Shown piece by piece: positions 4,507 through 40,609 of a stretch of DNA of 64,000 bases. This DNA is from Candidatus Nomurabacteria bacterium. GTDB lineage: Bacteria; Patescibacteriota; Minisyncoccia; Phycocordibacterales; UBA9973. The notes beneath the pieces were generated by a model. It saw nothing but the letters and a program-made list of their open reading frames with translations. It made no database searches and was not told the origin of the DNA. A program made the translations under genes and the position numbers. Position 1 is the first letter of the stretch. The number at the start of each line of letters is the position of its first letter. Location of the stretch: NCBI GenBank assembly GCA_963832025.1, contig CAWHSF010000003.1, positions 143,665 to 207,664 on the forward strand, written 5' to 3'.

Positions 4507-7500
4507 CTACTGCTCTATATACGTAGGTTTCATCTTGAATATAGAACACGAAGCAGTTGAGCCACTTGGCACACTGTCACAAATCCAAGTCCATTGTGAA
4601 GAGGTACTACTCTCACTAGAAGCATCTAATGTTCCTTGAGTACAAGTATTAATGGTTGTAGTAGAGCAAGAAACACTTCCTCCAGAAGGAGCTGCGTCTT
4701 GGCTAGCTGAACATATGCTGTCTGTGCCACTAGTTACGTGTAAACATTCCCAGTTTGCAGTTCCCCCTGGTGCTGGGAAAGAAATAACTGAAGGACTTTG
4801 GGTTCCTGACTCACAGAAAGTGTCAGAACCATAGCCCGGCCAATTGTAAGGGTAAGTTGTATTGTCTGCTGAACCACAAACTCCGTTAATAGAAGTTGCA
4901 GTAACACAAGTGCTACCATTCCAACTTGTGCCCGAAGTACAAGTGGCAGTCGATAAACTTGTCGCCAGTGATACAGCATTGTTATAAAGATAGAATGTCC
5001 TACCAGCATATGGAACAGCTAAGCCGTTTGCTGTGCCTGATTGAAAACTAGGACTGATTGTATTGGTTACATTTACGTTGGTCATTCCTGTCGCCGTAAT
5101 CGCAGTCGGAGTTCCGATTGGGTTAGTTATACTCCAGTTTAAGTTTACCGTACAAGTACTTGCTCCGGATAAAATGATACAGGAGGTGATGGGTGGAGTG
5201 AGGGTGCCGGACATTCCGACATTCCATTCGGAGAAGAAGAGCAAATACTTCCATTCCAACTTGTTCCCGAAGTACAAGTGGCTGTAGCTGAACTTGTAGC
5301 CAGTGATAGTGCATCATTGTAAAGATAGAATGTCCTACCTAGATATGGCACAACTAAACCGTTTGCTGTGCCTGATTGAAAACTAGGACTGATTGTATTG
5401 GTTACATTTACGTTGGTCATTCCTACTGCTGCAATCGCAGTCGGAGTTCCGATTGGGTTAGTTATACTCCAATTTAAGTTTACCGTGCAAGTACTTGCTC
5501 CGGATAGAATGATACAGGAGGAGGTGGGTGGAGTGAGGGTGCCGGTCATTACTAACTGACTAAACGTCGCGGTAACTGCTTTAGCTGCAGTCATGGTAAG
5601 AGAACATGTGCCTGTTCCGGTGCAAGCTCCAGTCCATCCGGTGAAGGTTGAGCCAGTGGTTGGGGTGGCGGTCAAAACTACTGCTGTGTTGTAGTTGTAA
5701 CTTTGAGAACAGTCAGCACCGCAACTGATACCGGCAGGACTACTGGTGACTGTTCCGGTGCCGGTGCCGGCAGGAGTGACAGTGAGAGCTTCTTGATTTG
5801 GAGAGCAGATAGTTCCGTTCCAAGTTGTGTTGGCGGCACAAGTTGCTGTAGCAACGCTGCTGTCGAGTTGAATAGCATCGTTGTAAAGATAGAATGTTCT
5901 ACCAGGATATGGCACAACTAAACCGGTTGCTGTGCCTGATTGAGGACTAGTTAAAGTTGTTGTTACATTTACGTTGGTCATTCCTGTCGCCGTAATCGCA
6001 GTCGGAGTTCCGATTGGGTTAGTTATACTCCAATTTAAGTTTACCGTACAAGTACTTGCTCCGGATAAGATCGTGCAAGAAATAGTCGCTGGAGTGAGCG
6101 TGCCGGTCATTTGAGTGAAGTTTGCAATCACCGTACAGTTGGCGGTAATTGCTCCGGTGGTATAAGTACTTCCAGACAATGTACCTCCACAAGTGCCGGT
6201 AGTTGTACCGATGGAGTAACCGGTACTGGGGGTGAGGGTGAAAGCTTTGTTGGAATCGTAATTAACTACTTGCACGTTACTTGGAGAGATGGTTCCACTA
6301 CCGGTTCCGACAGAGGGGGTGACGTTGTAGGTGTTGATTGTGAAGTTTGCAATCACCGTACAGTTGGCGGTAATTGCTCCCGTGGTGTAAGTACTTCCAG
6401 ATAGTGTACCTGCAGGACAAGTACCGGTAGTTGTACCGATGGAGTAACCGGTGCTTGCGGTGAGGGTGAAAGCTTTGGTGGAACCGTAATTAACTACTTG
6501 TGCGTTATTTGGAGAAATTGTTCCTCCGGTTCCGGCAGAAGGAGTGACGTTGTAGGTGTTGATTGTGAAGTTTGCAATCACCGTACAGTTGGCGGTAATT
6601 GCTCCCGTGGTGTAAGTACTTCCAGATAGTGTACCTGCAGGACAAGTACCGGTAGTTGTACCGATGGAGTAACCGGTGCTTGCGGTGAGGGTGAAAGCTT
6701 TGGTGGAACCGTAATTAACTACTTGTGCGTTATTTGGAGAAATTGTTCCCTCCGGTTCCGGCAGAAGGGGTGACGGTGTAGGTGTTGATTGTGAAGTTTG
6801 CAATCACCGTACAGTTGGCGGTAATTGCTCCCGTGGTGTAAGTACTTCCAGATAGTGTACCTGCAGGACAAGTACCGGTAGTTGTACCGATGGAGTAACC
6901 GGTACTTGCGGTGAGGGTGAAAGCTTTGGTGGAACCGTAATTAACTACTTGTGCGTTATTTGGAGAAATTGTTCCTCCGGTTCCGGCAGAGGGGGTGACG
7001 TTGTAGGTGTTGATTGTGAAGTTTGCAATCACCGTACAGTTGGCGGTAATTGCTCCCGTGGTGTAAGTACTTCCAGATAGTGTACCTGCAGGACAAGTAC
7101 CGGTAGTTGTACCGATGGAGTAACCGGTACTTGGGGTGAGGGTGAAAGCTTTGGTGGAACCGTAATTAACTACTTGTGCGTTATTTGGAGAAATTGTTCC
7201 TCCGGTTCCGGCAGAAGGAGTGACGGTGTAGGTGTTTAGCGTAAACGTCGCGGTAACTGCTTTAGCTGCAGTCATGGTAAGAGAACATGTGCCTGTTCCG
7301 GTGCAAGCTCCAGTCCATCCGGTGAAGGTTGAGCCAGTGGTTGGGGTGGCGGTCAAAACTACTGCTGTGTTGTAGTTGTAACTTTGAGAACAGTCAGCAC
7401 CGCAACTGATACCGGCAGGACTACTGGTGACTGTTCCGGTGCCGGTGCCGGCAGGAGTGACAGTGAGAGCTTCTTGATTTGGAGAGCAGATAGTTCCGTT

Positions 7501-8985
7501 CCAAGTTGTGTTGGCGGCGCAGGTACAATTAACAGTTAGGCCAGAACCGTTGGGAGAAGTCGGAACAAGCGATTTGGCATTATTGTAAAGATAGAAAGTT
7601 TTACCAGCATATGGGACAGTCGTTGGCACACTAGTTCCAGAATCTCCCAAAAAGACGTTTACACCAGAACTAGTTATAGCAGAACCATTTGGAACTTCTG
7701 GATTTGTAACATTCCAAGTTAAATTTACAGTACCACTACCAGAATTAGCTGGAACAGTACAAGCCGTAGCACTCATCGTACCCGACATAGTACCAACAAT
7801 AATAGTAAATGGTATTTGTGGGCCAAAAGCAGTGCTTCCATTAAACATCTGCCATATTTCTGTGTATGTCTTAGCGGCAGATGGAGCAGTTAAAGAACTT
7901 AAGGAAAAAGTTGTTGTTGCGTTAGAAGCAACATCGGCGCTACCACTAGTAGATTCTGTATATACTGCACTACAGTTGGTATTGCTGTTCCACGTTCCAC
8001 CACATCCAGCCTGACAGACATTGGAACTTGTCCCGCAACCTACGCTTCCATTAACAGTACATGAATTTGCGAGACCATTCCAGCTTCCGCCACACATTCC
8101 ACAATTACTAGCGTTAGCACTACAGTTAAAAGAACCACTAGAAGAACACGAACCCAAACACGATTGAGAGTTATATTTACACGTCTGAGTGGTTGTCTGA
8201 CTATATGGTATGGGATTCGGACTAGAACTAAAGCCTCCAGTAATATCTTTCAGTTTGATTGTGCTTGAATAATTTGTGATCGTGGCTGTACATGTGTCTC
8301 CTAAAGTTGTAGGACAAGAATAGAGACCATCAGTTGCTCCACAGTCTGATGATTTAGAAATCGATTTTTGGTCTGACACCCAATTAGGAGTTGCGCCAGT
8401 GCTGGTATTTTTGATAGTAAATATGTAAGGCCCACTTACTTGGCTTGTGTTCATCTGAGTCGGCATACTCGGAGAAAGTGGAGATACAAAAGAATCATTT
8501 AAGGTAGTTGATGGAGAGCCAAAAGATGCAGTACCGTCTGAAAGATAAGTAACAGAACCCCAAGGCGCATAACCTGGATATGGATTAGAATTTAAAGTAA
8601 AAGAATATGTTCCCTGCTCAGGATGATCACTTGTGCCACAATTATTATAACTTGAATTATAAGCCGTTTGTGTAATGGTAATATTACTAGAAGGAATACT
8701 TCCAGATACTCCATCAATTGTATATGAAAGATAACCACCCGACTCGAAGATGTCTAGTGGAGGACTTAATCCGAGTGTATTATCACATGTGACAGTTTGA
8801 ACGTTATAGCCACTTGAGAAAGTTCCAGAAATGGTAATACTGCTACTAGTAGAACTGGCACCCACGGTGACATTGGAAGTACAGCCACTGCCAGTGCATG
8901 ATGCTTTTGTCGTGGAAACATTAAAGAGAGCAAATAGAGCAATAACTGCTATAAGCAAACCAGAAACAAAAATTTTCTTTTTCAT
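4507..8985 (-). CDS. giant repeat-rich secreted surface protein (adhesin-like, InlB-B-repeat-like modules); reading frame interrupted twice
   Basis: Signal peptide MKKKIFVSGLLIAVIALFALF. Three tracked ORFs (6730..9021, 5145..6803, 4507..5277) join at protein-repeat level. They are broken by an extra C at 6748-6750 and an 8-bp tandem duplication at 5210-5225. The first and third ORFs share a frame (9021-5277=3744). Confidence 0.75.
5210..5225. repeat. perfect 8-bp tandem duplication (gacattcc x2) causing a frameshift in the surface protein gene
   Basis: Read directly. Deleting one unit restores ...CSSSPNGMSGTLTPPITSC..., which matches the other module junctions. Confidence 0.85.
5561..5837. 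repeat. 277-bp direct repeat, copy 1 (partner at 7242-7518)
   Basis: taaacgtcgcggtaactgctttagctgcagtcatgg...ccaagttgtgttggcggc appears identical by eye in both places. Confidence 0.85.
6115..7240. repeat. tandem array, 5 x 225 bp (75-aa module FTINTYxVTPSAGTGGTISPNNAQVVNYGSTKAFTL...CTVIAN)
   Basis: The marker gtgaagtttgcaatcaccg recurs at 6115, 6340, 6565, 6791 and 7016. The single 226-bp period contains the extra C. Confidence 0.9.
7242..7518. repeat. 277-bp direct repeat, copy 2
   Basis: See the partner at 5561-5837. Encodes the same ...EALTVTPAGTGTGTVTSSPAGISCGADC... module. Confidence 0.85.
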
Positions 8986-9139
8986 ATTTATTTTTTGATT
9001 AGTAAAAAAGATTAACTCCAATAATTATAATATATATAACAACTTAAGTAAAATATTTTGGTGTGTATAACCCATCTATGAACTTTTTTGAGCACCTTGT
9101 CTTGAAATAATTTTTATGATAGACTGCTTTATGTATGGA

Positions 9140-22962: not shown

Positions 22963-22991
22963 TTGATTTAATAAAAAAACGAGTGTATTAT
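22963..22991 (+). promoter_or_regulatory. clpP promoter, apparently leaderless
   Basis: TTGATT, 17-nt spacer, TATTAT; 6 nt separate the -10 box from the ATG at 22998. No SD. Confidence 0.5.
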
Positions 22992-22997
22992 AGACGC

Positions 22998-23603
22998 ATG
23001 TTAATCCCAACCGTAATTGAAAAAAGCCAGTTTGGCGAAAGAGCTTACGATATTTACTCTCGCCTTTTACGTGAGCGTATTGTCTTTTTAGCTGGGCCAA
23101 TAGACGATAACACTGCAAATATCATTATTGCTCAGCTTTTGTTTTTGGAATCCGAAGATTCAAAGAAAGATATTTCACTTTATATAAATTCTCCTGGTGG
23201 CTCTGTCACTTCTACGATGGCAATAGTAGACACCATGAACCATGTCCGCCCGGATGTATCTACTTTTTGCGTTGGCCTTGCCGCTTCTGGCGCAGCCATT
23301 GTTCTCTCTGCAGGAAAAAAGGGCAAGAGATTTATTTTACCGAATGCTGAAGTCATGATTCATCAACCGATGGGCGGAGTAGAAGGGCAAGCATCAGACA
23401 TAGCCATCACGGCCAAACACATTCTGAAAACGAGAGACAATCTAAATAAACTTTTGGCAAAAAATACTGGCAAATCTTTGGCGCAAGTAGAAAAAGATGT
23501 AGAAAGAGATTTCTTTATGGATTCCGACGAAGCGCAAAAATACGGAATCATTGACGAGATTGTCACCAAATCCAAAACTCCAACTACGAAAAGTCAGGAT
23601 TAA
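22998..23603 (+). CDS. clpP: ATP-dependent Clp protease proteolytic subunit
   Basis: [26 protein letters not shown] and MIHQP motifs. Confidence 0.92.
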
Positions 23604-23663
23604 TATTTATATTTAAAAGGCTTTTTTGCAATTCTAGCTCTTTAATTTTGACCGTTTTATCTA

Positions 23664-23692
23664 TTGACAGATAGACAATATTCTGCTATAAT
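23664..23692 (+). promoter_or_regulatory. perfect sigma70-consensus promoter of the GC-rich island gene
   Basis: TTGACA (23664-23669), 17-nt spacer, TATAAT (23687-23692). Confidence 0.65.
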
Positions 23693-23752
23693 TATATACG
23701 TAACGCGTTCCGTCAAAATTCAATAAGATGTATGCTCGGAGGAGCAAAGACA

Positions 23753-24643
23753 ATGAAGAAATGGGGTTCGTTCGCCACCAGACTTGCCGCAACGCTTCTA
23801 ATCGTTGTCTTGACTGCCTGCACTTCGCAGGTGTCGAGCAGCAAGACATTCACCGTCCTCCCCACACAAAGCTACGACCAGTACAAACAGATGGTCGTCG
23901 ATGGAACAACGTGGACGATCCCAATGGGCATTGATTTCGTGCCTGTCGGACATCCCTTGTCTGAACACGAAGCTCGCTTACTCAAGCTCCACAAGGAGAC
24001 GCTGAAGTATCGCGGCTTCTTCTACAACGAGCTCCGCAGCCGGCACACCTTCGAGGCTAAATATCTTGAGGTAGGTACTGAAGTGTGGGCCGATGAAACC
24101 GACAGACCCAGGTATCTGGTGTCTTGTGGGAATCAGATCTCGATTGTTCCAATGGGAGTAACCTGCCCCAACACAGTATCGTATCCTAAGACAGAAGGCG
24201 CAGGGACCTTTGACTTGCAAGAGAAATTACTCGCTTTCTTGTTGGCACTTGCAGCCTTGATTGCGATTGGAATGATGCTCTTTGCTGCTATCGTCTGGCT
24301 GGCAGGAGCAATAGCCAGATTGCTATCACCAACTCCGCCGGTTCAAGAAACGACACCAACTCCTGAGGCACCTCCAACGCCTGCCCCAGTTCCTGTTGCA
24401 CCAACATCTACGCCAGCTCAGGTGCCAGTAGCGCCAGCTACTTCTCAGGAAACCCCGGCTTCTACGGTAACAATGCGCAGGTTTGGTCCGTTCAAAACGA
24501 CCACGACAAGTGACCGTCAGGAGGACGGGTTTCATGTTGTCGGAGATGGTCGAGAACTTGGGGTGTTCACAACACCTGTGACCACCGAGGACGCGGGAGA
24601 ACGCGGACACTTCGTCGTGCACACCACGACTACTACATCTTAA
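23753..24643 (+). CDS. hypothetical lipoprotein with internal TM helix and Pro/Thr-rich region; compositionally foreign
   Basis: GGAGG SD 10 nt upstream. Lipobox LTAC in MKKWGSFATRLAATLLIVVLTAC. Visibly much higher GC than its flanks. Confidence 0.7.
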   Translation: MKKWGSFATRLAATLLIVVLTACTSQVSSSKTFTVLPTQSYDQYKQMVVDGTTWTIPMGIDFVPVGHPLSEHEARLLKLHKETLKYRGFFYNELRSRHTFEAKYLEVGTEVWADETDRPRYLVSCGNQISIVPMGVTCPNTVSYPKTEGAGTFDLQEKLLAFLLALAALIAIGMMLFAAIVWLAGAIARLLSPTPPVQETTPTPEAPPTPAPVPVAPTSTPAQVPVAPATSQETPASTVTMRRFGPFKTTTTSDRQEDGFHVVGDGRELGVFTTPVTTEDAGERGHFVVHTTTTTS

Positions 24644-24680
24644 ATCAATCCCCTCTTGGCCCCAAGCCAAGAGGAAAACC

Positions 24681-24712
24681 AAAGGGCGGACGCGCAATGC
24701 GTCCGCCCTTTT
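24681..24712. terminator. bidirectional intrinsic terminator
   Basis: aaagggcggacgc gcaat gcgtccgcccttt flanked by A/T runs. Lies between convergent genes. Confidence 0.75.
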
Positions 24713-24723
24713 AAAATTATTTT

Positions 24724-26613
24724 TTAAAGTATTTTTATACTGCCTCCGGTGTTGCCAGCCATGATGTATTCGGCTACTTTGTTTTCCACAATTTGTTCCA
24801 TCGCACGTTTGATTGGACGAGCGCCAAATTCCGGGTCATATCCCGCAGATGCGACTTTTTCAATCAAAGCGTCGGTAATCTCTAACGTAATTTTTTTATC
24901 ATTCAAAAGATTTTGCGCAAACTCATTCAGCAACAATGTGGTTATTTTTCTGGCTTCGTCTTGGTTGAGTGGTTTAAAAAGCACGATACTGTTAAATCTG
25001 TTTAAAAATTCCGGAGCAAATATTCCGTTTCTTATCAAATCGTTAATTAATATTTTTTTATCAATTTCTGGACTAGCGATAATTTCTGCACTCCCGGCAT
25101 TGGATGTGGCAATAATTATCGCGTCTTTAAAACTTGCCTCCCTGCCAGAAGAGCGAGTCAAGCGCCCCTCATCAAGCACTTGCAAAAGTAAGTTATGAAT
25201 TAAAGAATTTGCTTTCTCAAGCTCATCAAAGAAAATCAAAGAGAGTGGCGCTTCTTCAACAGCAGAAGTCAATCTTTCAGTAAAAGCAGTCATGGAACTT
25301 CCGCTTGAAAATTCACTCATATCAAAACGAATCATGGCGTTTTTTCTGCCGAAATAACTTTCCGCCAAAATTTTTGCCGTATAAGTTTTTCCAACTCCCG
25401 TCGGCCCCAAGAAAAGGAAGCTCCCGGCTGGCTTGGTGTGATCGGCAATACCGGTACGTAAACGTCGCAATGCCTCGGCCACATCTTTGACTGCTTCATC
25501 TTGGCCAATAATCTTTTTTTCCATTGAAGCTTCAAGTTCTACGAGTACTTTCTTTTCATCGGTACCGATATCTCCGATTGGTATGTTTGTCTTGTCAGAT
25601 ACGACTTGTCTCACATCGGAAATAGTTATTCTCTTTCTCATGGTTTGTAACTCTTCCAAGACGGAAATAGATTTCAAGGGTTCTGCTTGATTGCCAATCA
25701 AACGGTCAGTCAATTTTACTATTTCTTCTACCGCATCTTGGTCTATTCTCACATGCATTTTTTGAGCGTTATTTAAAAGAATTGCCACCGTATCTTCTTC
25801 GTCTGTTTCCAGAATGTCCACTTTTTCAAATTTTGAAAGAAATTCTGGATAATTTTTTAACACTTGGTCGTAATTTGATAAATCAGTCGTGACGATTATT
25901 CCCAAATGAGGCATGTGTAGATAAGGCATGAGCTTTTCATACAAGGCTTCATAAGAATGTATATTTTCTATCACGAGAATTACATTGCCCGCAGAGGCTG
26001 CCTCCTTTAAACATTTTTCAAAATCTATTAAATTAATTCCTTCGACAAACAATTCCACCACTCGATGTTGGCGAATCTCCGGAGAAGACAAGCCTGACTG
26101 GCCCAAACGTCCGAGATAAGCTATCAAAGTTGACTTACCAACCCCCGTATCTCCCACCAAAAGAACATTGCGGTTGCTTTCTTTGGAAAGTCCTCGTTCA
26201 ATCATGCGAAGCGCTTTTTCTTTGCCATAAATTTTTTGTGAACTGGGAGAAATTACATCTTTACTGTGCAGAAAGAGAGTATAAGTATCTCCATAGGAAA
26301 GCGATGAACCTACACTCCCCAAATTTTTTAGATATTCAATACTAATATTTATCGGCAAAATTAAAAATATTGGAAAAGTTAAAATAATCAGAATGGTAAA
26401 AATTAAACCAAAAACTATCAAAATTATTCGAGCAATTAACCCTAAAAACCGGGAGAAAATAGAAAAAATGATTTTTTCAAAAAAAGATAAGTGGTCGCCG
26501 GAACCTTTGTCCATTTTCCAGGGCGAGAAAAGAGTTTTGACGAGAAGAGGAATAGAAAAAGCATTAAACGCATAAATGACTAGGTTCTTCCACGAACGTA
26601 TTCCTGAGTGCAT
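24724..26613 (-). CDS. Clp/Hsp100-type double AAA+ ATPase with N-terminal membrane anchor
   Basis: TM region at the N-terminus. D1 has Walker A GDTGVGKS but Walker B VILVIENIH. D2 has GPTGVGKT and IFFDELEKA. C-terminal ClpB_D2-small-like FGARPIKR. Confidence 0.8.
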   Translation of the reverse strand: MHSGIRSWKNLVIYAFNAFSIPLLVKTLFSPWKMDKGSGDHLSFFEKIIFSIFSRFLGLIARIILIVFGLIFTILIILTFPIFLILPINISIEYLKNLGSVGSSLSYGDTYTLFLHSKDVISPSSQKIYGKEKALRMIERGLSKESNRNVLLVGDTGVGKSTLIAYLGRLGQSGLSSPEIRQHRVVELFVEGINLIDFEKCLKEAASAGNVILVIENIHSYEALYEKLMPYLHMPHLGIIVTTDLSNYDQVLKNYPEFLSKFEKVDILETDEEDTVAILLNNAQKMHVRIDQDAVEEIVKLTDRLIGNQAEPLKSISVLEELQTMRKRITISDVRQVVSDKTNIPIGDIGTDEKKVLVELEASMEKKIIGQDEAVKDVAEALRRLRTGIADHTKPAGSFLFLGPTGVGKTYTAKILAESYFGRKNAMIRFDMSEFSSGSSMTAFTERLTSAVEEAPLSLIFFDELEKANSLIHNLLLQVLDEGRLTRSSGREASFKDAIIIATSNAGSAEIIASPEIDKKILINDLIRNGIFAPEFLNRFNSIVLFKPLNQDEARKITTLLLNEFAQNLLNDKKITLEITDALIEKVASAGYDPEFGARPIKRAMEQIVENKVAEYIMAGNTGGSIKIL

Positions 26614-26974
26614 TTATATATTCTAGCATATATAGACAAAATTTCAGCAATCTGTTATACTGAAAAAGTTGAAATTTACAAATTTTTTCGCTTAATTTAA
26701 GTCGGTTCTCAGGAATATTCCATATATTATGAAGTTTCAAGAAAAAATGTTAAGAAGAAATTTTCAAATCTTTACTAGTGTTTTTGCTAAAGGAGAAGTA
26801 AGGCCAAAAATATAATGGTTTGTTCTTGTAAGCTGGCTATCTAGCTTATGAGCATAACAATAATAATTTTAATCGGAGTCGTAGTACTCCTTTTGGGCGT
26901 CGGGATCAGGATACTATCTTCGCCTAATCATCGCGCTGGGCAAGAGAAGGTCCATAGAAATAGACATCAAGCAA

Positions 26975-28378
26975 ATGATGGTCGGCGCAAAAGAAGAGGC
27001 GCAAAAAATTACCGATGAAGCCAAAAAGGCTTCGGAGGCCAAACTCACCGAGCTTCGCGAAGAAGAGAAAAAGAAAGAGAATGAGTTTAAGGAAACCGAA
27101 AAACGCCTCATAAAAAAGGATGAGTTTTTGGATGCGAGACAATTGGAAGTAGATAAGGAGGTTGAAAATATAAAAGTGAAAGTAGAGGAAGTAAAAAAGA
27201 TTCAGGAAAAAGTTTCCAAAATAGAAGAAGAAAAGAAAGTTGAATTGGAAAGAGTCGCAAAATTGACGGAGCTGGAAGCCAAAGATGAACTCTTGAAAGA
27301 TATTGAAAAAAAATACGAGGAAGATATTCTCATTAGAATTCAAAAACTGGAAAATACCAATGAGGAGAAATTGGACCGCCGAGCCAAAGACATTTTGGCT
27401 ACCACTATTCAACGTTTGGCTTCAAGTACAGCATCTGAATTGATGACAACCATCGTTTCCATTCCAAACAATGAAATCAAGGGTAAAATTATCGGAAAAG
27501 AAGGCCGAAATATCCGTGCTTTTGAAAGAGCGGCTGGCGTGGAATTGATTGTGGACGACACACCTGGCTCAATCGTTATCTCTTCATTTGACCCCATCCG
27601 AAGGCAAGTTGCTCGCTTGGCATTGGAGAACCTTATTTTAGACGGACGTATTCAACCAGCCAAGATTGAAGAGCTAGTAGAAAAAGCTAAAGAGGAAATC
27701 AATAAAATAATCAAAGAAAAAGGAGAGCAAGCTGTTTACGAATGCGGAATCTTTAACTTTGACCCGCGTATCGTGGCAATTATCGGACGATTGTATTTCC
27801 GCACCAGTTACGGACAAAATGTTCTTCAGCACTCCATCGAAATGGCACACATCGCTGGCATGCTCGCAGAAGAGCTCGGTGCAGATGTCGCCATCGCCAA
27901 AGCCGGAGCTTTGGTGCATGACATCGGTAAAGCTCTGGACCACGAAGTGCAAGGCACCCATATTGAAATCGGTATGCGCATCTTGCAAAAGTTCGGTGCG
28001 GATGAACGCATCGTGACTGCTATGAAGTCCCACCATGAAGATTATCCTTATGAAACGATTGAATCAGTCATCGTACAAACTGCCGACGCCATCTCTGGCG
28101 GCCGGCCTGGTGCACGCCGAGACTCAGTAGAGAACTACTTGAAGCGTTTACAAGAGCTTGAAGCACTGGTAAACACTTTCCCTGCTGTAGAAAAATCATA
28201 TGCATTGCAAGCTGGCCGTGAAATCCGCATCTTTGTAACCCCTGAAAAGATTTCCGACGCTGAAGCAAAGCTCATGGCTCGTGATATTGCTCTAAAAATA
28301 GAACAAGAACTCAAATATCCTGGAGAAATTAAAGTAACAATGATTCGCGAAACAAGAATTATTGAATACGCTAGATAA
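26975..28378 (+). CDS. rny: ribonuclease Y (KH + HD domains)
   Basis: KH GKEGRNIRAFE, HD HDIGKA. The expected N-terminal TM helix is encoded from the ATG at 26848 in another frame. Confidence 0.9.
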   Translation: MMVGAKEEAQKITDEAKKASEAKLTELREEEKKKENEFKETEKRLIKKDEFLDARQLEVDKEVENIKVKVEEVKKIQEKVSKIEEEKKVELERVAKLTELEAKDELLKDIEKKYEEDILIRIQKLENTNEEKLDRRAKDILATTIQRLASSTASELMTTIVSIPNNEIKGKIIGKEGRNIRAFERAAGVELIVDDTPGSIVISSFDPIRRQVARLALENLILDGRIQPAKIEELVEKAKEEINKIIKEKGEQAVYECGIFNFDPRIVAIIGRLYFRTSYGQNVLQHSIEMAHIAGMLAEELGADVAIAKAGALVHDIGKALDHEVQGTHIEIGMRILQKFGADERIVTAMKSHHEDYPYETIESVIVQTADAISGGRPGARRDSVENYLKRLQELEALVNTFPAVEKSYALQAGREIRIFVTPEKISDAEAKLMARDIALKIEQELKYPGEIKVTMIRETRIIEYAR

Positions 28379-28390
28379 AAATCACTCAGA

Positions 28391-28437
28391 AAAGGCGGGT
28401 TTGGTAAATATTATTACCAAACCCGCCTTTTCTTTTG
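28391..28437 (+). terminator. intrinsic terminator after rny
   Basis: aaaggcgggtttggtaa ... ttaccaaacccgccttt followed by tcttttg. Confidence 0.75.
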
Positions 28438-28553
28438 CTACTTGCCTTAAAAAACCCTTGATATATAATGTATAGGTAGTATTTATATAGGTTAAACGGT
28501 CGAAACATTACAAATTTTGTCTAACTTGTCCCGCGTTAGTGGGAAAATATCAT

Positions 28554-28826
28554 ATGAACAAACAAGCATTAGCTGAATGGGTACATGGAAAGCTCGGTGG
28601 CACAAAGGTGCAAGCAGAAGAAATCGTCGACGGATTGTTTGAAGCTATCATTTCAACTTTGAAAAAAGGTGGTGAAGTTTCAATCGCTGGCTTCGGAATC
28701 TTTTCCGTAAAGGCTCGCGCTGCTCGCATGGCTCGCAATCCAAAAACTGGTGAGCAAGTCAAAGTAGCTGCAAAGAAAGTTCCAAAATTCCGACCTGCAA
28801 AAGGTTTGAAGGACACTATTGCATAA
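28554..28826 (+). CDS. hup: HU/IHF-family DNA-binding protein
   Basis: FGIFSVKARAARMARNPKTGEQVKVAAKKVPKFRPAKGLK. Confidence 0.9.
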   Translation: MNKQALAEWVHGKLGGTKVQAEEIVDGLFEAIISTLKKGGEVSIAGFGIFSVKARAARMARNPKTGEQVKVAAKKVPKFRPAKGLKDTIA

Positions 28827-28845
28827 CTTTTAATCTCGAGATTAA

Positions 28846-28880
28846 AAAACAAAAACACCCTAATCGGGTGTTTTTGTTTT
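28846..28880. terminator. bidirectional hairpin between hup and lexA
   Basis: aaaacaaaaacaccc taatc gggtgtttttgtttt. Confidence 0.65.
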
Positions 28881-28885
28881 GGTAC

Positions 28886-29452
28886 TCAATATTTCCTTAT
28901 CACCGCCTTTAGTATAGCTATCACGTTCAAGGAATGTTCCGGATGAATAGGTTTGTAATTTTTGTTTGCGGGTTCGAGCCAACGTTTGCTTCCTTTCTCA
29001 CGAAGATATTTCATGGTGAATTCTCCATCCACTTCGGCAATGATTATCTGTCCGTCTTTCGCATGATTTGTTTTCTCTACCAGCACCATGTCTCCCTTTT
29101 CTATATGCGCATCTATCATGGAGTCACCATCAACCTCAAGCATGTAAGTCAGCGGTTTATTTTTGATCAGAAGATCATCCAAGTTTACCGTATCTGCGAG
29201 CTCTTCTTCAACGGTCGCCGGAAAGCCAGCTGTAACGTATCCAAGCATCGGTACTTCTCCAAATGTTTCGGATGGCATTAATCTGCCAAGATGGTCCTTG
29301 GCTACGAATCCTGCTTCTATAAGTTTTTCTACAATTTTAAAAACCGCATTCTTGGATTTGAAACCGAAAAGTTTCAGCATCTCAGAGTATGTCGGCATTC
29401 TTTTGTTGTCGCTGTAAAAGGATTCTATTTTTGTTTGATAAATGTTTTTCAT
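28886..29452 (-). CDS. lexA: LexA-type repressor (wHTH + S24 peptidase)
   Basis: GDSM serine motif and downstream Lys (FTMKYL). 188 aa. Confidence 0.8.
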   Translation of the reverse strand: MKNIYQTKIESFYSDNKRMPTYSEMLKLFGFKSKNAVFKIVEKLIEAGFVAKDHLGRLMPSETFGEVPMLGYVTAGFPATVEEELADTVNLDDLLIKNKPLTYMLEVDGDSMIDAHIEKGDMVLVEKTNHAKDGQIIIAEVDGEFTMKYLREKGSKRWLEPANKNYKPIHPEHSLNVIAILKAVIRKY

Positions 29453-29497
29453 TTGATTTTACGAAATCATGTCGCGCAACCGTCCTCTAAGCGCGAC

Positions 29498-29710
29498 CTA
29501 GAAGGAAAATTTCGTAACTGAAGAAGTGGGTCGGCTGAAAAACCGACTGAAAAAACTTCTTCTAGTATGATAACGAACTTTCTTCAAGAGCAACTTGTGC
29601 TCTCTTGCTTCCTTGGCATACTTTTCTCCCTCCAAAATCTTCAAGTCAATCTTCTTGTTAATCTTTTGTATTTCCCTCTCTAACATTTTTAAATATTGCG
29701 ATTGTGACAT
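29498..29710 (-). CDS. small basic coiled-coil protein, first gene of the lexA operon
   Basis: 70-aa ORF downstream of the SOS-box promoter. No homology recognised. Confidence 0.4.
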   Translation of the reverse strand: MSQSQYLKMLEREIQKINKKIDLKILEGEKYAKEAREHKLLLKKVRYHTRRSFFSRFFSRPTSSVTKFSF

Positions 29711-29759
29711 AAAATTTATTTATTATTTACTAATCCCGACCCGACTTGGTCTTACAGAT

Positions 29760-29788
29760 AGTATAAGTGAACGCTCGTTCACTGTCAA
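29760..29788 (-). promoter_or_regulatory. SOS-regulated promoter: -35 TTGACA, LexA (Cheo-type) box in the spacer, -10 TATACT
   Basis: Minus strand reads TTGACAgtGAACgagcGTTCacTTATACT. The GAAC-N4-GTTC box lies at 29769-29780. Confidence 0.6.
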
Positions 29789-29810
29789 CAACCCCACCTG
29801 TGGATAACTC

Positions 29811-29856
29811 TCCAGACGTTGGACGTCTGTGTTCTTACAGACGTCCAACGTCTGGA
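29811..29856. repeat. family-A nested palindrome
   Basis: Arms tccagacgttggacgtctg / cagacgtccaacgtctgga (19 bp, 8-nt loop). Each arm is itself palindromic (cagacgt tgg acgtctg). Confidence 0.9.
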
Positions 29857-36903: not shown

Positions 36904-37416
36904 TTAGAACTTGCCACGCATTAAATATTTCTCTGGGTCCAAAGATAAATCCACAAAATCATCCACCGCTTCGCGAAGTTTTCCAGAAGTTGATTTGCCG
37001 AAAGAAACTACTTCCACTTGCACACCATTGGTCTGTAAATATTCCACCAGCGGAACAAAATCTCCATCACCGGAAACTATCACGACAGAATCCAATCGAG
37101 GTGACATTTTGATTGCATCCACAGCTAGGCCCACATCCCAATCTGCCTTTTTCGCACCACCGGCAAATATTTGCAAGTCTTTGGTTTTTGTTTCAATTCC
37201 TAATTTTGCCAAAGCTTCAAAAAAGTTTTTTTCATCTCCTGCTTCTGTGGTGATCACATAAGCTACCGCACGAACGAGCTTTCTGCCAGCGACTGCATCT
37301 TTCAAAACCGCGCCGAAATTCACTCGCGCCTGATAAAGGTTGCGAGCTGAGTGATATAAATTTTGAGTATCGATAAAAACACCTACTCTCTGTTCTTTAT
37401 GTTTTATAACTGTCAT
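36904..37416 (-). CDS. NYN/LabA-like domain protein (predicted RNase)
   Basis: RVGVFIDTQNLYHSAR ... VIVSGDGDFVPLVEYLQ. Confidence 0.75.
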   Translation of the reverse strand: MTVIKHKEQRVGVFIDTQNLYHSARNLYQARVNFGAVLKDAVAGRKLVRAVAYVITTEAGDEKNFFEALAKLGIETKTKDLQIFAGGAKKADWDVGLAVDAIKMSPRLDSVVIVSGDGDFVPLVEYLQTNGVQVEVVSFGKSTSGKLREAVDDFVDLSLDPEKYLMRGKF

Positions 37417-39946: not shown

Positions 39947-40609
39947 ATGAACCACAATAGATTAGATCAATTAGCTGATGGAATTTTTGCCATCGTGATG
40001 ACGATTCTCGTTTTTGAGATTAAAGTGCCGATCATTTGGGGGCCAATAGACAACGCAGGCCTTTGGCTCCAGATCAAACAACTTGCTCCGGTTTTCTTGA
40101 GTTATCTTTTGAGTTTCTCGCTTCTTTTCACTTACTGGCGCGCTCATCATTTTTTTATTTCCATCTACGCAAAAAACATCGACGCCATGCTCACCAATAT
40201 CAATGCTTTGTTTTTCATGCTGATTAGCTTAATTCCTTTTTCCGCCAGCTTGCTCGGCCAATATAGCAGAAATGAATTATCGGTGGTGATTTTTAGCATT
40301 CACACAATTTTAATCGGACTTACCTTGTACTGGATGCGCCGATATGTTTTCTATTCCCCATCAATTAAAAATCCCGAAATTACCAAACGGGAAATCCGCG
40401 GAAGTGTGATTCGCACCCTGGTTCCCGTCTTTTTCGCGCTCGTCGCCATTCTCCTTTGCTTCTGGAGTATAAAAGTTTCTATCGTAATGCTTACCTTGGC
40501 GGTACTCTTCAATCTTTCCACTTATAGCACTCGCCTCTTTGAGAATATCTTAAAATTTCTCCACAAATTCTTTTTTGGAGAAGATGTAAAAGGCCACTTT
40601 GCGGACTAG
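39947..40609 (+). CDS. TMEM175/DUF1211-family membrane protein (putative K+ channel)
   Basis: RLDQLADGIFAIVMTILVFEI signature, 6 predicted TM segments. Confidence 0.7.
   Translation: MNHNRLDQLADGIFAIVMTILVFEIKVPIIWGPIDNAGLWLQIKQLAPVFLSYLLSFSLLFTYWRAHHFFISIYAKNIDAMLTNINALFFMLISLIPFSASLLGQYSRNELSVVIFSIHTILIGLTLYWMRRYVFYSPSIKNPEITKREIRGSVIRTLVPVFFALVAILLCFWSIKVSIVMLTLAVLFNLSTYSTRLFENILKFLHKFFFGEDVKGHFAD

What the first reader, a model, noticed from the sequence alone, without database searches (positions are those of the whole stretch)
23640..24715. Self-contained GC-rich single-gene island between clpP and the Clp ATPase gene
A roughly 1-kb block is conspicuously GC-richer than everything around it. 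It carries its own expression signals:
- A perfect TTGACA-17-TATAAT promoter.
- A strong GGAGG Shine-Dalgarno, unlike the many apparently leaderless native genes.
- A strong bidirectional terminator at 24681-24712.

The promoter is enclosed by an inverted repeat, aattttgaccg (23644-23654) / ccgtcaaaatt (23710-23720).

The product is a lipobox protein (LTAC) with a TM helix and a Pro/Thr-rich spacer. I recognise no similar protein. This pattern fits recent horizontal acquisition of a surface lipoprotein. A chimeric assembly is the alternative.
Basis: partly seen in the sequence, partly recalled or inferred. Interest (0 to 1): 0.55.

Follow-up and report, generated by a model that had tools for sequence, protein, structure and literature searches.

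The report
Acquired GC-rich membrane lipoprotein gene cassette
A self-contained, GC-rich gene for an uncharacterised membrane-anchored lipoprotein sits in the gap between clpP and a Clp ATPase gene of a low-GC Paceibacterota (CPR) genome, a gap that is only 6-10 bases long in two close relatives; it is a genuine but old horizontal acquisition at an insertion hot spot, which is an ordinary kind of event.

Summary
Window 23753-24643 (+) encodes a 296-aa protein at 53% GC and GC3 0.54. The window averages 39% GC, with a median GC3 of 0.33. The gene has a 12/12 TTGACA-17-TATAAT promoter, the only GGAG-type Shine-Dalgarno among 29 window genes checked, and a perfect 13-bp terminator hairpin.

It is not a chimera. 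An independent Logan contig crosses both junctions at 99.9% identity. A diverged relative (L004) carries an ortholog in front of the same Clp ATPase gene.

Two close relatives have an empty site of 6-10 nt. Two others carry different cargo there: a toxin-antitoxin pair, and an unrelated GC-rich ORFan cassette. The junction is therefore a hot spot.

The protein belongs to an unannotated family, with 132 clusters at E<=1e-3. The six members whose source organism is known are all Patescibacteria. It has no Pfam match and no fold match. The layout is signal peptide or lipobox, ectodomain with an invariant Y-x3-C-G-N motif, TM helix, Pro-rich linker and a small beta domain.

Family genes match their host's composition in 50% and 63% GC hosts and stand out in every low-GC host. 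This points to transfer from GC-richer genomes.

The acquisition is probably not recent. dS between the window and L004 is 1.4 for the island and 1.9 for the flank, and third positions are partly ameliorated. Function is unknown.

The parts
22998..23603 (+). clpP, the left flanking core gene (201 aa counted from the ATG at 22998; the ORF list starts at the GTG at 22983)
   Evidence: Pfam CLP_protease, E=9e-81. The start is inferred from the 201-aa clpP genes of relatives L013 and L015.
23604..23663 (+). Left junction: AT-rich spacer between the clpP stop codon and the cassette promoter
   Evidence: Similarity to the empty site of L015 ends at the clpP stop codon. GC is 0.24-0.31.
23664..23692 (+). 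Sigma-70 promoter TTGACA-17-(TGc)TATAAT
   Evidence: 12/12 match with TG extension. One of two perfect matches in the window. The same TTGACA(A)...TGCTAnnnT design lies upstream of every family member examined.
23641..23723 (.). Inverted repeat that encloses the promoter (arms 23641-23652 and 23712-23723); probably chance
   Evidence: 11 of 12 complementary. An equal or better repeat occurs in 4% of shuffles and 8% of window tiles. Conservation could not be tested because the L004 contig starts inside the promoter.
23699..23752 (+). Predicted 5' UTR of about 53 nt, with the Shine-Dalgarno GGAGGAG at 23738-23744
   Evidence: Read from the sequence. It is the only GGAG/GAGG core among 29 window genes. 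The transcription start is inferred from the position of the -10 box.
23753..24643 (+). CDS of the 296-aa bitopic lipoprotein. Residues 1-23: signal peptide with lipobox LTAC. Residues 24-146: ectodomain with invariant N92, Y121, C125 and N127. Residues 153-191: TM helix. Residues 192-236: Pro/Thr-rich linker. Residues 237-296: C-terminal beta domain (RRFGPF...).
   Evidence: ORF. Identical protein P0001 and homologs. Alignments A1 and A2. AF2 model with mean pLDDT 84. dN/dS of about 0.2 against L004.
24649..24677 (.). First hairpin downstream of the stop codon
   Evidence: 13-pair stem. The perfect 9-nt core is 24652-24660 / 24666-24674. It is conserved in L004.
24681..24711 (.). Intrinsic terminator hairpin: perfect 13-bp G+C-rich stem, T-run on the + strand and a weaker T-run on the - strand. 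It lies 13 nt beyond the stop codon of the Clp ATPase gene.
   Evidence: The stem and the GCAATGC loop are conserved in L004, and also in L005, which lies in a different genomic context.
24724..26613 (-). Clp-family AAA+ ATPase with an N-terminal membrane segment; the right flanking core gene, convergent with clpP
   Evidence: Pfam AAA_2 (E=2e-35) and ClpB_D2-small (E=5e-21). Homologs at 70-88% identity are named Paceibacterota, Nomurabacteria or Pacebacteria where a source names them.

Best explanation
The block is a horizontally acquired, autonomously expressed single-gene cassette: promoter, leader with Shine-Dalgarno, ORF and terminator. It lies in the tiny spacer between the convergent core genes clpP and a Clp ATPase gene of a low-GC Paceibacterota (Patescibacteria/CPR) bacterium.

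That junction is a hot spot for accessory DNA in this lineage. The gene belongs to an unannotated family found mainly in Patescibacteria. The family matches its host's composition in mid- and high-GC genomes, so the donor was most likely a GC-richer relative. Entry was probably by DNA uptake followed by recombination, because no recombinase or repeat signature is present.

The acquisition is probably old. It most likely predates the split of the window lineage from the L004 lineage, and third codon positions are part-way through amelioration.

The product is kept under purifying selection. It is predicted to be strongly and constitutively expressed as a bitopic envelope protein. An N-terminal lipid anchor and a beta-rich ectodomain (invariant Y-x3-C-G-N) sit on the outer face of the membrane. 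One TM helix follows, then a Pro-rich linker and a small beta domain in the cytoplasm.

Shown: the composition, the signals, continuity across assemblies, presence or absence in relatives, family membership, and purifying selection.

Inferred: the donor, the route of entry, the topology, the lipidation, high expression, and any role at the cell surface.
For: Foreign signals:
- GC3 is 0.54 against a host median of 0.33, and 6 SD above the value expected from the amino-acid sequence with host codon usage.
- The gene has the only SD among 29 window genes, in a largely leaderless genome.

Real junctions:
- Logan contig L003 matches window 23472-29827 at 99.92%.
- L004 has a 55-61% identical ortholog in front of the same Clp ATPase gene, with a conserved promoter and terminator.

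Presence and absence at the junction in relatives (Clp ATPase 80-88% identical):
- L015 is empty, with a 10-nt gap.
- The contig that carries P0139 is empty, with a 6-nt gap and otherwise the same gene order.
- L013 carries a HigB/HigA-like pair plus a 162-aa gene, all low-GC.
- L017 carries an unrelated GC-rich 179-aa ORFan with the same promoter, SD and terminator design.

Family:
- 132 clusters at E<=1e-3 share the same architecture.
- The four members that a source names are Nomurabacteria, Parcubacteria (two) and Paceibacterota. Two genome loci come from Saccharibacteria and Paceibacterota MAGs.
- Genomic contexts differ: RmuC/ExoX, LysM-M23, a DEAD-box helicase, MOSC/ExoX, and secY|adk.

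Composition by host (gene GC3 against host median GC3):
- Seven low-GC loci: gene 0.54-0.77, host 0.28-0.38.
- L008, a 50% GC host: gene 0.63, host 0.62.
- L018, a 63% GC Paceibacterota host: gene 0.79, with neighbouring genes at 0.77-0.93.
- L009, a 53% GC host: gene 0.82, host 0.63, so the gene still stands out there.

Age and selection:
- Window against L004: island dN 0.28 and dS 1.39; Clp ATPase dN 0.10 and dS 1.90.
- A two-state decay from GC3 0.75-0.80 over that dS predicts 0.42-0.51 now, against 0.54 observed.

The unit that moves:
- The terminator hairpin and its loop are conserved between the window, L004 and L005, although L005 is in another genomic context.
Against: - No integrase, transposase, tRNA gene, direct repeats or target-site duplication mark the borders. 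The insertion mechanism is therefore undemonstrated.
- No donor genome was identified for the close subfamily. Every close homolog for which DNA was obtained lies in a low-GC host.
- L001 and L007 carry 39-45% identical copies at the same RmuC-adjacent site. Both are still at GC3 0.69-0.76, although their flanking genes are saturated at 4-fold sites. Under this explanation that requires independent insertions, or replacement, at a second hot spot.
- L013 and L015 are at least as close to the window as L004 in the Clp ATPase C-terminus. Shared ancestry of the window and L004 copies therefore implies later loss or replacement in L013 and L015. The alternative is an exchange of the cassette between the window and L004 lineages.
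- No phage or plasmid vehicle was found.
- Function rests on architecture alone. There is no Pfam, NCBIfam, PHROG, PADLOC, PDB or BFVD match.
Confidence: 0.6

Rival explanations
1. The gene is an old, vertically inherited Patescibacteria family gene. Its GC-richness is a property of the family that is actively maintained, for example by selection on mRNA stability or structure, by codon selection, or by recombination-associated biased gene conversion. Its patchy distribution would then reflect repeated loss, not gain.
For: - The gene is GC-rich in all seven low-GC loci examined and in one mid-GC host, L009.
- L001 and L007 keep GC4 at 0.79 and 0.65 at a syntenic position, although 4-fold sites of the flanking genes are at chance identity.
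- Every source-named or genome-located member is from Patescibacteria.
- dS of the island between the window and L004 is similar to dS of the flank.
- Amino-acid composition (GC2 0.50 against about 0.34) is GC-type even in the folded domains.
Against: - In the window/L004 lineage GC3 has dropped to 0.54-0.55, and 4-fold sites (0.44-0.48) are close to the host value of about 0.38. That is what neutral amelioration predicts and not what a held set-point predicts.
- In the 50% and 63% GC hosts the gene matches its host and is not offset from it.
- The same junction is empty in two relatives and holds unrelated cargo in two others.
- Genomic contexts differ widely between family members.
- The cassette's terminator travels with the gene into a different context.
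Confidence: 0.22
2. The high GC3 is codon adaptation of a very highly expressed native gene (translational selection), and not a sign of foreign origin.
For: - The gene has a perfect consensus promoter, a strong SD and a strong terminator.
- The excess is strongest in 2-fold codons. C-ending codons are favoured for Phe, His, Asp and Asn.
Against: - G-ending AAG, CAG and GAG are enriched as well, at 0.47-0.70 against 0.17-0.22 in the host. That is a GC shift and not the usual tRNA-matching pattern.
- No other window gene exceeds GC3 0.50, including those for RNase Y, PNPase and the H+-pyrophosphatase.
- Homologs reach GC3 0.75-0.82 at all classes of site.
- The gene is absent from close relatives.
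Confidence: 0.05
3. The block is a remnant or cargo of a recognised mobile system: a prophage moron, an integron cassette, a transposon passenger or a defence islet.
For: - The promoter-ORF-terminator unit with deviant GC is laid out like a phage moron.
- The same junction holds a toxin-antitoxin pair in L013.
- Weak PHROG hits exist, to a Zot-like toxin and an Rz-like spanin, at E 0.07-0.5.
Against: - The flanks are core genes with a conserved order.
- There is no tblastn hit in 50,697 phage records, no relative in the IMG/VR viral contigs, and no hit in 72,556 plasmids.
- There is no PADLOC hit.
- The downstream hairpins show no attC-like GTTRRRY core site, and no integrase gene lies nearby.
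- The PHROG hits fall on the TM and Pro-rich low-complexity parts of the protein.
Confidence: 0.08
4. The block is an assembly chimera: a GC-rich fragment from another organism joined into a low-GC contig.
For: The compositional step is sharp at both borders.
Against: - The independent Logan assembly of run ERR11523672 crosses both borders. It differs from the window by 4 mismatches and 1 gap over 6356 nt.
- A JGI contig from another sample (L004) has the orthologous gene next to the orthologous Clp ATPase gene at 71-75% nucleotide identity.
- The same kind of GC step recurs in seven low-GC loci drawn from JGI, ENA, Logan and NCBI assemblies.
Confidence: 0.01

Closest known systems
Single-gene genomic islet or 'moron'-type autonomous cassette acquired by horizontal transfer at a hot spot between core genes
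   Same: It has its own promoter and terminator and a deviant base composition and codon usage. It is present or absent among close relatives. The same junction holds alternative cargo in different strains.
   Different: It is not inside a prophage. It has no integrase, tRNA gene or repeat borders. Its translation-initiation mode (leader plus SD) also differs from that of the mostly leaderless host genes.
Pfam DUF6777 (PF20568), a domain of unknown function
   Same: 9 of 49 family members give weak hits (best E=3.8e-6, at most about 22 bits). The hits cover the core of the ectodomain, profile positions 55-118.
   Different: All hits are below the 27-bit gathering score. The window protein itself gives no hit. 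The match carries no functional information.
Bacterial lipoproteins (substrates of Lgt and LspA)
   Same: The protein has a basic n-region, a hydrophobic h-region and the lipobox L-T-A-C, with Cys at residue 23. The Ala-Cys pair is invariant in the close subfamily.
   Different: Many distant family members have a signal-peptidase-I type AxA site instead. The protein also has a C-terminal TM helix, so the ectodomain would be tethered at both ends.
TonB or IcmG/DotF-like 'TM helix - Pro-rich spacer - small C-terminal domain' envelope proteins
   Same: It has a TM helix followed by a Pro-rich spacer and a compact beta domain. There are weak NCBIfam and PDB hits to TonB and IcmG/DotF over that region.
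   Different: Scores are far below the cut-offs (13 bits against 265) and come from the low-complexity segment. The predicted topology puts the Pro-rich part in the cytoplasm, not in the periplasm. There is an additional N-terminal ectodomain.

Membership tests
Horizontally acquired genomic islet | Base composition and codon usage deviate from the host genome | tested here: met
   GC3 is 0.54 against a host median of 0.33 and a maximum of 0.50. It is 6 SD above the expectation from the amino-acid sequence with host codon usage.
Horizontally acquired genomic islet | Absent from the orthologous site in close relatives | tested here: met
   L015 has a 10-nt gap and the contig that carries P0139 has a 6-nt gap. 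L013 and L017 carry other cargo.
Horizontally acquired genomic islet | Mobility signature: integrase or transposase, a tRNA target, or flanking direct repeats | tested here: not met
   No such gene lies in 20-28.5 kb. The nearest tRNA genes are at 45-46 kb. Only one AT-rich 21-nt inverted repeat, 76% complementary, spans the block. No duplication is visible against the empty site.
Horizontally acquired genomic islet | An identifiable donor lineage in which the gene matches host composition | tested here: inconclusive
   A distant family member matches its host in a 63% GC Paceibacterota contig (L018) and another in a 50% GC genome (L008). No GC-rich host was found for the close subfamily.
Bacterial lipoprotein | Signal peptide that ends in a lipobox [LVI][ASTVI][GAS]C | tested here: met
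   MKKWGSFATRLAATLLIVVLTAC. A22 and C23 are invariant in alignment A1.
Bacterial lipoprotein | Lgt and LspA encoded by the genome, and lipidation demonstrated | not tested
   The window ORFs were not scanned for Lgt or LspA, and the rest of the genome is not available here. Lipidation needs an experiment.
Pfam DUF6777 (PF20568) | Score at or above the 27-bit gathering threshold | tested here: not met
   The window protein gives no hit. Relatives score at most about 22 bits.
Prophage moron | Located within a prophage, or has homologs in phage genomes | tested here: not met
   The flanks are clpP and the Clp ATPase gene. There is no hit in the phage records or in the viral contigs. No BFVD fold match has E<0.1.
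Integron gene cassette | attC recombination site at the 3' end, and an intI integrase with attI nearby | tested here: not met
   The 3' hairpins are perfect G+C stems followed by T-runs, which is the terminator type, and they lack R'/R'' core sites. No integrase ORF is nearby.
TonB family | A significant match to the TonB C-terminal domain or to the NCBIfam TonB model | tested here: not met
   NF008082 gives E=0.065 and 13 bits against a cut-off of 265. The hit lies over the TM and Pro-rich segment only.

The most novel reading that the evidence does not exclude
Low-GC, largely leaderless Patescibacteria genomes may host a circulating pool of autonomous single-gene expression cassettes. Each has a consensus TTGACA-17-TGnTATAAT promoter, a 5' leader with SD, a GC-rich ORFan and a hairpin terminator. 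They would insert into near-zero-length junctions between core genes (clpP|Clp ATPase, next to RmuC, secY|adk) without any recognisable recombinase. The lipoprotein family found here would be one widespread cargo, possibly a surface factor of the episymbiotic lifestyle.

The support is preliminary:
- A second, unrelated GC-rich cassette sits at the same junction in L017.
- Several GC-rich ORFans that carry an SD occur in L001, L006, L007 and L012.
- The terminator is conserved across different genomic contexts.
- GC-rich genes are associated with an SD (4 of 6, against 2 of 42 native genes; Fisher p=0.001).
Probability: 0.2. Interest if true: 0.6.

Novelty: new member of a known kind. Interest (0 to 1): 0.35.

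Why it matters
On its own this is an ordinary event: an accessory gene picked up at a hot spot. It gives three useful results.

1. It defines an unannotated family, found mainly in Patescibacteria, of bitopic envelope proteins. The family has 132 clusters, a confidently predicted fold with no PDB match, and an invariant Y-x3-C-G-N motif. Such proteins are candidates for the poorly understood cell-surface biology of CPR bacteria.

2. It documents a gene-exchange hot spot between two convergent core genes that are otherwise 6-10 nt apart. This gives a clean natural before-and-after pair for studying how ultra-compact CPR genomes take up DNA without recognisable recombinases.

3. It shows that foreign genes in these genomes can be recognised by their translation-initiation mode (leader plus SD in a leaderless background) as well as by GC content. 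That may help HGT detection in CPR MAGs.

Tried and rejected
Function and fold searches that gave nothing usable:
- Pfam, NCBIfam, PHROGs and PADLOC scans of the protein gave nothing, or only low-complexity noise.
- An AF2 model from 4 sequences was poor (pLDDT 50). A model from 49 sequences was good (pLDDT 84). Foldseek against the PDB and BFVD still gave no hit with E<0.1.
- A profile search of PDB sequences hit only TM and Pro-rich segments.

Searches for a vehicle:
- tblastn against phages and plasmids found nothing. A scan of viral contigs found no relative.

Searches limited by the tools:
- A word-indexed search with the 49-sequence profile saturated on Pro-rich words and returned only 7 proteins.

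Features examined and set aside:
- Rfam found only tRNAs in the window. In the island it found only sub-threshold matches on the terminator hairpin.
- The inverted repeat around the promoter was tested and judged compatible with chance.
- The 21-nt AT-rich inverted repeat that spans the whole block (23600-23620 / 24707-24727, 76% complementary) was considered as a possible cassette border. It is low-complexity, overlaps both stop codons, and has no counterpart at the empty site.
- An attC or integron reading was rejected.
- Translational selection was considered and rejected as the main cause.
- The small GC-rich genes between RmuC and ExoX in L001 and L007 are not homologous to each other.

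Literature:
- Searches found general reports of HGT in Patescibacteria (PMC12455944). Nothing was found on this family or on DUF6777.
Full report
OBSERVATION

The block is real. In 400-nt windows GC rises to 52-55% between about 23800 and 24800, against 33-43% on both sides. The window as a whole is 39% GC.

The ORF 23753-24643 (+) encodes 296 aa. Its GC is 0.532 and its GC3 is 0.539. The two neighbours have GC3 of 0.37 (clpP) and 0.35 (Clp ATPase). Among 43 other ORFs of at least 150 aa the median GC3 is 0.327 and the maximum is 0.498.

I re-encoded the same protein 2000 times with the window's own codon frequencies. This gives GC 0.469 +/- 0.010 and GC3 0.366 +/- 0.027. The Pro/Thr/Ala-rich composition therefore explains about half of the excess. 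The rest, about 6 SD at third positions, is codon choice.

The other GC-richer part of the window is 4.5-9 kb, a repeat-rich Thr/Ser/Gly surface-protein gene. Its excess is purely an amino-acid effect (GC2 0.61, GC3 0.32-0.37).

- The promoter TTGACA-17-TATAAT lies at 23664-23692 and scores 12/12, with a TG extension. It is one of two perfect matches in 64 kb.
- GGAGGAG lies at 23738-23744, before the ATG.
- A perfect 13-bp G+C-rich hairpin lies at 24681-24711, and a second hairpin at 24649-24677.

Only 1 of 29 window genes has a GGAG/GAGG core upstream, and that gene is this one. Many others have a TGnTAnAAT box that ends a few nt before the start codon.

The inverted repeat around the promoter exists (11 of 12 complementary) but is not remarkable. 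An equally good repeat appears in 4% of shuffles and in 8% of real 149-nt tiles. The flanking genes are clpP and an AAA_2/ClpB_D2-small ATPase.

NOT A CHIMERA

The identical protein (P0001) is encoded on a Logan contig from run ERR11523672. That contig aligns to window 23472-29827 with 4 mismatches and 1 gap over 6356 nt. It therefore crosses both borders in an independent assembly.

A JGI contig from another sample (L004) carries a 55-61% identical ortholog directly in front of the orthologous Clp ATPase gene. The ATPase is 84% identical in amino acids over its last 221 residues. The promoter and both downstream hairpins are recognisably conserved.

WHOSE GENOME, AND WHAT THE SITE LOOKS LIKE IN RELATIVES

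The Clp ATPase has hundreds of homologs at 70-88% identity. Where a source names them, they are Candidatus Pacebacteria, Paceibacterota, Nomurabacteria, Minisyncoccia or Patescibacteria. The window is therefore from a Paceibacterota (CPR) bacterium.

I examined the same junction in four relatives:
- L015 (ATPase 82% identical; GCA_031291825.1). The two stop codons are 10 nt apart.
- The contig that carries P0139 (80%). The gap is 6 nt, and the gene order around it is the same as in the window: S24 peptidase, HU, RNase Y, ATPase, clpP, then the pyrimidine-synthesis genes.
- L013 (88%). It holds a Gp49/HigB-like plus HTH (HigA-like) pair and a 162-aa gene, all at 31-34% GC.
- L017 (81%). It holds an unrelated 179-aa ORFan at 52% GC and GC3 0.59, in a 43% GC background. 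This gene has its own TTGACA-17-(TGC)TATTCT promoter, an AAAGGAG SD and a G+C hairpin.

The junction is thus a hot spot with at least four states. In the window, similarity to the empty site stops exactly at the two stop codons. There is no duplication, no repeat pair of note, and no recombinase gene.

THE PROTEIN

Pfam, NCBIfam, PHROGs and PADLOC give nothing meaningful. A word-indexed search found only 4 proteins. A profile search of 1.84 billion cluster representatives found 132 at E<=1e-3, 44 at E<=1e-10 and 17 at E<=1e-30.

The members share one architecture:
- an N-terminal signal peptide, with a lipobox in the close subfamily and an AxA-type site in many others;
- an ectodomain of about 120 aa, with N92, Y121, C125 and N127 invariant across 49 diverse members (the motif RY[LK]xxCGN);
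- a TM helix followed by basic residues;
- a Pro-rich linker;
- a C-terminal domain of about 55 aa (RxGPF...).

Shorter forms that contain only the ectodomain also exist (P0017-P0019, L006). These still keep C125 although they lack the second cysteine. This suggests a functional cysteine and not merely a structural one, which is an inference.

The four members that a source names are all CPR: Nomurabacteria OGI82790.1, Parcubacteria MDB5194810.1 and RJQ14337.1, and Paceibacterota HVN26087.1. Two genome loci come from a Saccharibacteria MAG and a Paceibacterota MAG. One member, L008, lies on a 50% GC contig that encodes an aa3-type cytochrome oxidase. That gene content is not CPR-like.

With 49 sequences AlphaFold gives a mean pLDDT of 84, and above 93 in both domains. 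The ectodomain is beta-rich, the helix spans residues 153-191, and the C-terminal domain has six strands. Foldseek finds no PDB or BFVD match with E<0.1. A profile search of PDB sequences hits only the TM and Pro-rich segment. Nine of 49 members give sub-threshold hits to DUF6777 over the core of the ectodomain. This domain has no known function, and I found no paper that mentions it.

Against L004 the gene has dN 0.28 and dS 1.39, so dN/dS is about 0.2. The domains are more conserved (69-72% identity) than the TM helix and linker (36-57%). It is a functional gene under purifying selection.

WHY IT IS GC-RICH

I obtained DNA for ten distinct family loci.

In the seven low-GC loci (38-42% GC, median GC3 0.28-0.38) the gene always stands out, at GC 53-62% and GC3 0.54-0.77.

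In two of the three higher-GC hosts it matches its host:
- L008, 50% GC: gene GC3 0.63, host median 0.62.
- L018, a 63% GC Paceibacterota contig: the gene lies between secY and adk, with GC3 0.79. Neighbouring genes are at 0.77-0.93.

In L009, a 53% GC host, the gene still stands out, with GC3 0.82 against a host median of 0.63.

Genomic contexts are unrelated:
- clpP|ATPase in the window and L004;
- next to RmuC/ExoX in L001, L002 and L007;
- after a LysM-M23 peptidase gene in L005;
- after a DEAD-box helicase gene in L006, L010 and L011;
- next to MOSC/ExoX in L008 and on the contig that carries P0055;
- secY|adk in L018.

Every copy has its own TTGACA(A)-N17-(TGC)TAnnnT promoter and a hairpin terminator. 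All except L006 also have a leader with an SD. The terminator stem and its GCAATGC loop are conserved between the window, L004 and L005, although L005 lies elsewhere in its genome. The unit that moves is therefore the whole cassette.

The simplest reading is that the family is at home in mid- to high-GC genomes, including GC-rich Paceibacterota, and is repeatedly transferred into low-GC relatives. This agrees with a published survey of aquifer Patescibacteria, which found that most detected gene transfers occurred within the phylum (PMC12455944).

AGE

The window and L004 copies are the least GC-rich of the family (GC3 0.54-0.55). Their 4-fold sites (GC 0.44-0.48) are already near the host level of about 0.38. 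The excess is now concentrated in 2-fold codons.

Their dS of 1.39 is close to that of the flanking ATPase gene, 1.90. The cassette was therefore probably present before the two lineages split. An alternative is that it was exchanged between them not long afterwards.

A two-state decay from GC3 0.75-0.80 over that divergence predicts 0.42-0.51 today. This is near the observed 0.54 (a rough model). So 'recent acquisition' is not supported, and the gene is part-way through amelioration.

One complication remains. L013 and L015 are at least as close to the window as L004 in the ATPase C-terminus. Either they lost or replaced the cassette, or the cassette moved between lineages by recombination through the conserved flanks. 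Such recombination is plausible for bacteria thought to take up DNA, but it is not shown here.

WHAT DOES NOT FIT

L001 and L007 carry 39-45% identical copies at the same RmuC-adjacent position. Both are still at GC4 0.65-0.79. Yet their flanking genes (RmuC, 83% amino-acid identity) are at chance identity at 4-fold sites.

Under the transfer model this needs independent insertion or allele replacement at a second hot spot. Under the rival model it means that GC-richness is actively maintained. I give the rival about 0.2. The window/L004 lineage shows decay and not maintenance, and the L008 and L018 copies match their hosts.

Translational selection is unlikely to be the main cause:
- AAG, CAG and GAG are enriched as much as the C-ending codons.
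- No other window gene exceeds GC3 0.50.

A phage, plasmid, integron or defence origin has no support.

MECHANISM I COMMIT TO

Shown:
- The cassette is autonomous and compositionally foreign.
- It lies at a hot spot between convergent core genes.
- It is conserved under purifying selection.
- It encodes a member of a family known mainly from Patescibacteria.

Inferred, at about 0.6 for the overall scenario:
- It came from a GC-richer genome, probably a GC-rich Paceibacterota relative.
- It entered through DNA uptake and recombination.
- It entered before the window and L004 lineages split.

Inferred, at lower confidence (about 0.3):
- The product is an abundant bitopic envelope protein.
- Its ectodomain is lipid-anchored, is held at the outer membrane face, and acts on or binds an envelope or host-surface ligand through the invariant Y-x3-C-G-N site.
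- Its cytoplasmic Pro-rich tether and beta domain contact an intracellular partner.

NOVELTY AND SCORE

The event is a new member of a known kind, a horizontally acquired single-gene islet. The protein family is unannotated and has no structural relatives, which gives it modest interest.

The broader pattern could be more interesting. GC-rich, SD-led ORFan cassettes appear to sit in tight core-gene junctions of leaderless, AT-rich Patescibacteria genomes. Four of 6 GC-rich genes have an SD, against 2 of 42 native genes (Fisher p=0.001). This rests on a handful of loci.

Overall interest is 0.35.

Noticed in passing
window 1-64000 (examples: upstream of 2687-4447(-), 24724-26613(-), 36904-37416(-)): Native genes almost never have a Shine-Dalgarno: 1 of 29 does, and that one is the island gene. 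Many have a TGnTAnAAT -10 box that ends about 6-10 nt before the start codon. The genome therefore seems to use mostly leaderless mRNAs.
   Followed up: partly
L017:3535-4074(-), at the same clpP|Clp ATPase junction in a relative: An unrelated 179-aa ORFan with GC 52% and GC3 0.59 sits in a 43% GC background. It has no Pfam or PADLOC hit. It has the same design as the island: a TTGACA-17-TGCTATTCT promoter, an SD and a G+C hairpin. It occupies the site that holds the lipoprotein cassette in the window.
   Followed up: partly
L013:3696-4876, at the same junction in the closest relative (ATPase 88% identical): The junction holds a Gp49/HigB-like plus HTH (HigA-like) toxin-antitoxin pair and a 162-aa hypothetical gene. 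All three are low-GC (31-34%).
   Followed up: partly
L018:6001-6777: A distant family member (P0029, Paceibacterota HVN26087.1) sits between secY and adk, inside the otherwise conserved ribosomal-protein/secY/adk/map gene string of a 63% GC genome. It has its own promoter, SD and terminator.
   Followed up: partly
L018:370-5859: The ribosomal-protein genes of this GC-rich Paceibacterota contig are preceded by ACCAC-like motifs (for example aaccacgagcc) in place of an SD.
   Followed up: no
L001 7848-8225(-), 11307-11681(+), 12992-13225(-), 16553-17041(+); L007 2736-3170(+), 11702-12061(-); L012 4758-5027(-); L006 3468-4340(+): Several other small GC-rich ORFan genes (GC3 0.54-0.69) are scattered between low-GC housekeeping genes of Patescibacteria contigs. 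The seven that were scanned have no Pfam hit. Many have an SD and a G+C hairpin terminator.
   Followed up: partly
window 4507-9021 (-): A giant Thr/Ser/Gly-rich secreted repeat protein is split into three overlapping ORFs. It has 225-nt tandem repeats at 6115-7236 and a 335-nt repeat at 4916-5550. The split suggests frameshifts or repeat mis-assembly. Its raised GC comes from amino-acid composition only.
   Followed up: partly
window 39947-40609 (+): A 220-aa multi-pass membrane protein has the second-highest GC3 in the window (0.50), although its overall GC is ordinary (0.41). It may be another, older acquisition.
   Followed up: no
the contig that carries P0139 (ENA ERZ1426829; no DNA held), locus coordinates 228-1829: A restriction-modification pair (N6_N4_Mtase plus RE_EcoO109I) lies between the S24 (LexA-like) gene and the HU gene in this relative. 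It is absent from the window. This is another variable junction in the same neighbourhood.
   Followed up: no
window 23600-23620 and 24707-24727: A 21-nt AT-rich inverted repeat, 76% complementary, brackets the whole cassette and overlaps the stop codons of both flanking genes. It is low-complexity and has no counterpart at the empty site, so it is probably chance.
   Followed up: partly
L009:4995-5873: A family member in a 53% GC contig combines the ectodomain type of the short Saccharibacteria forms with the TM helix, linker and C-terminal domain of another subfamily (FHRYGPYDH type). This suggests domain shuffling within the family. Its GC3 of 0.82 exceeds the host median of 0.63.
   Followed up: no
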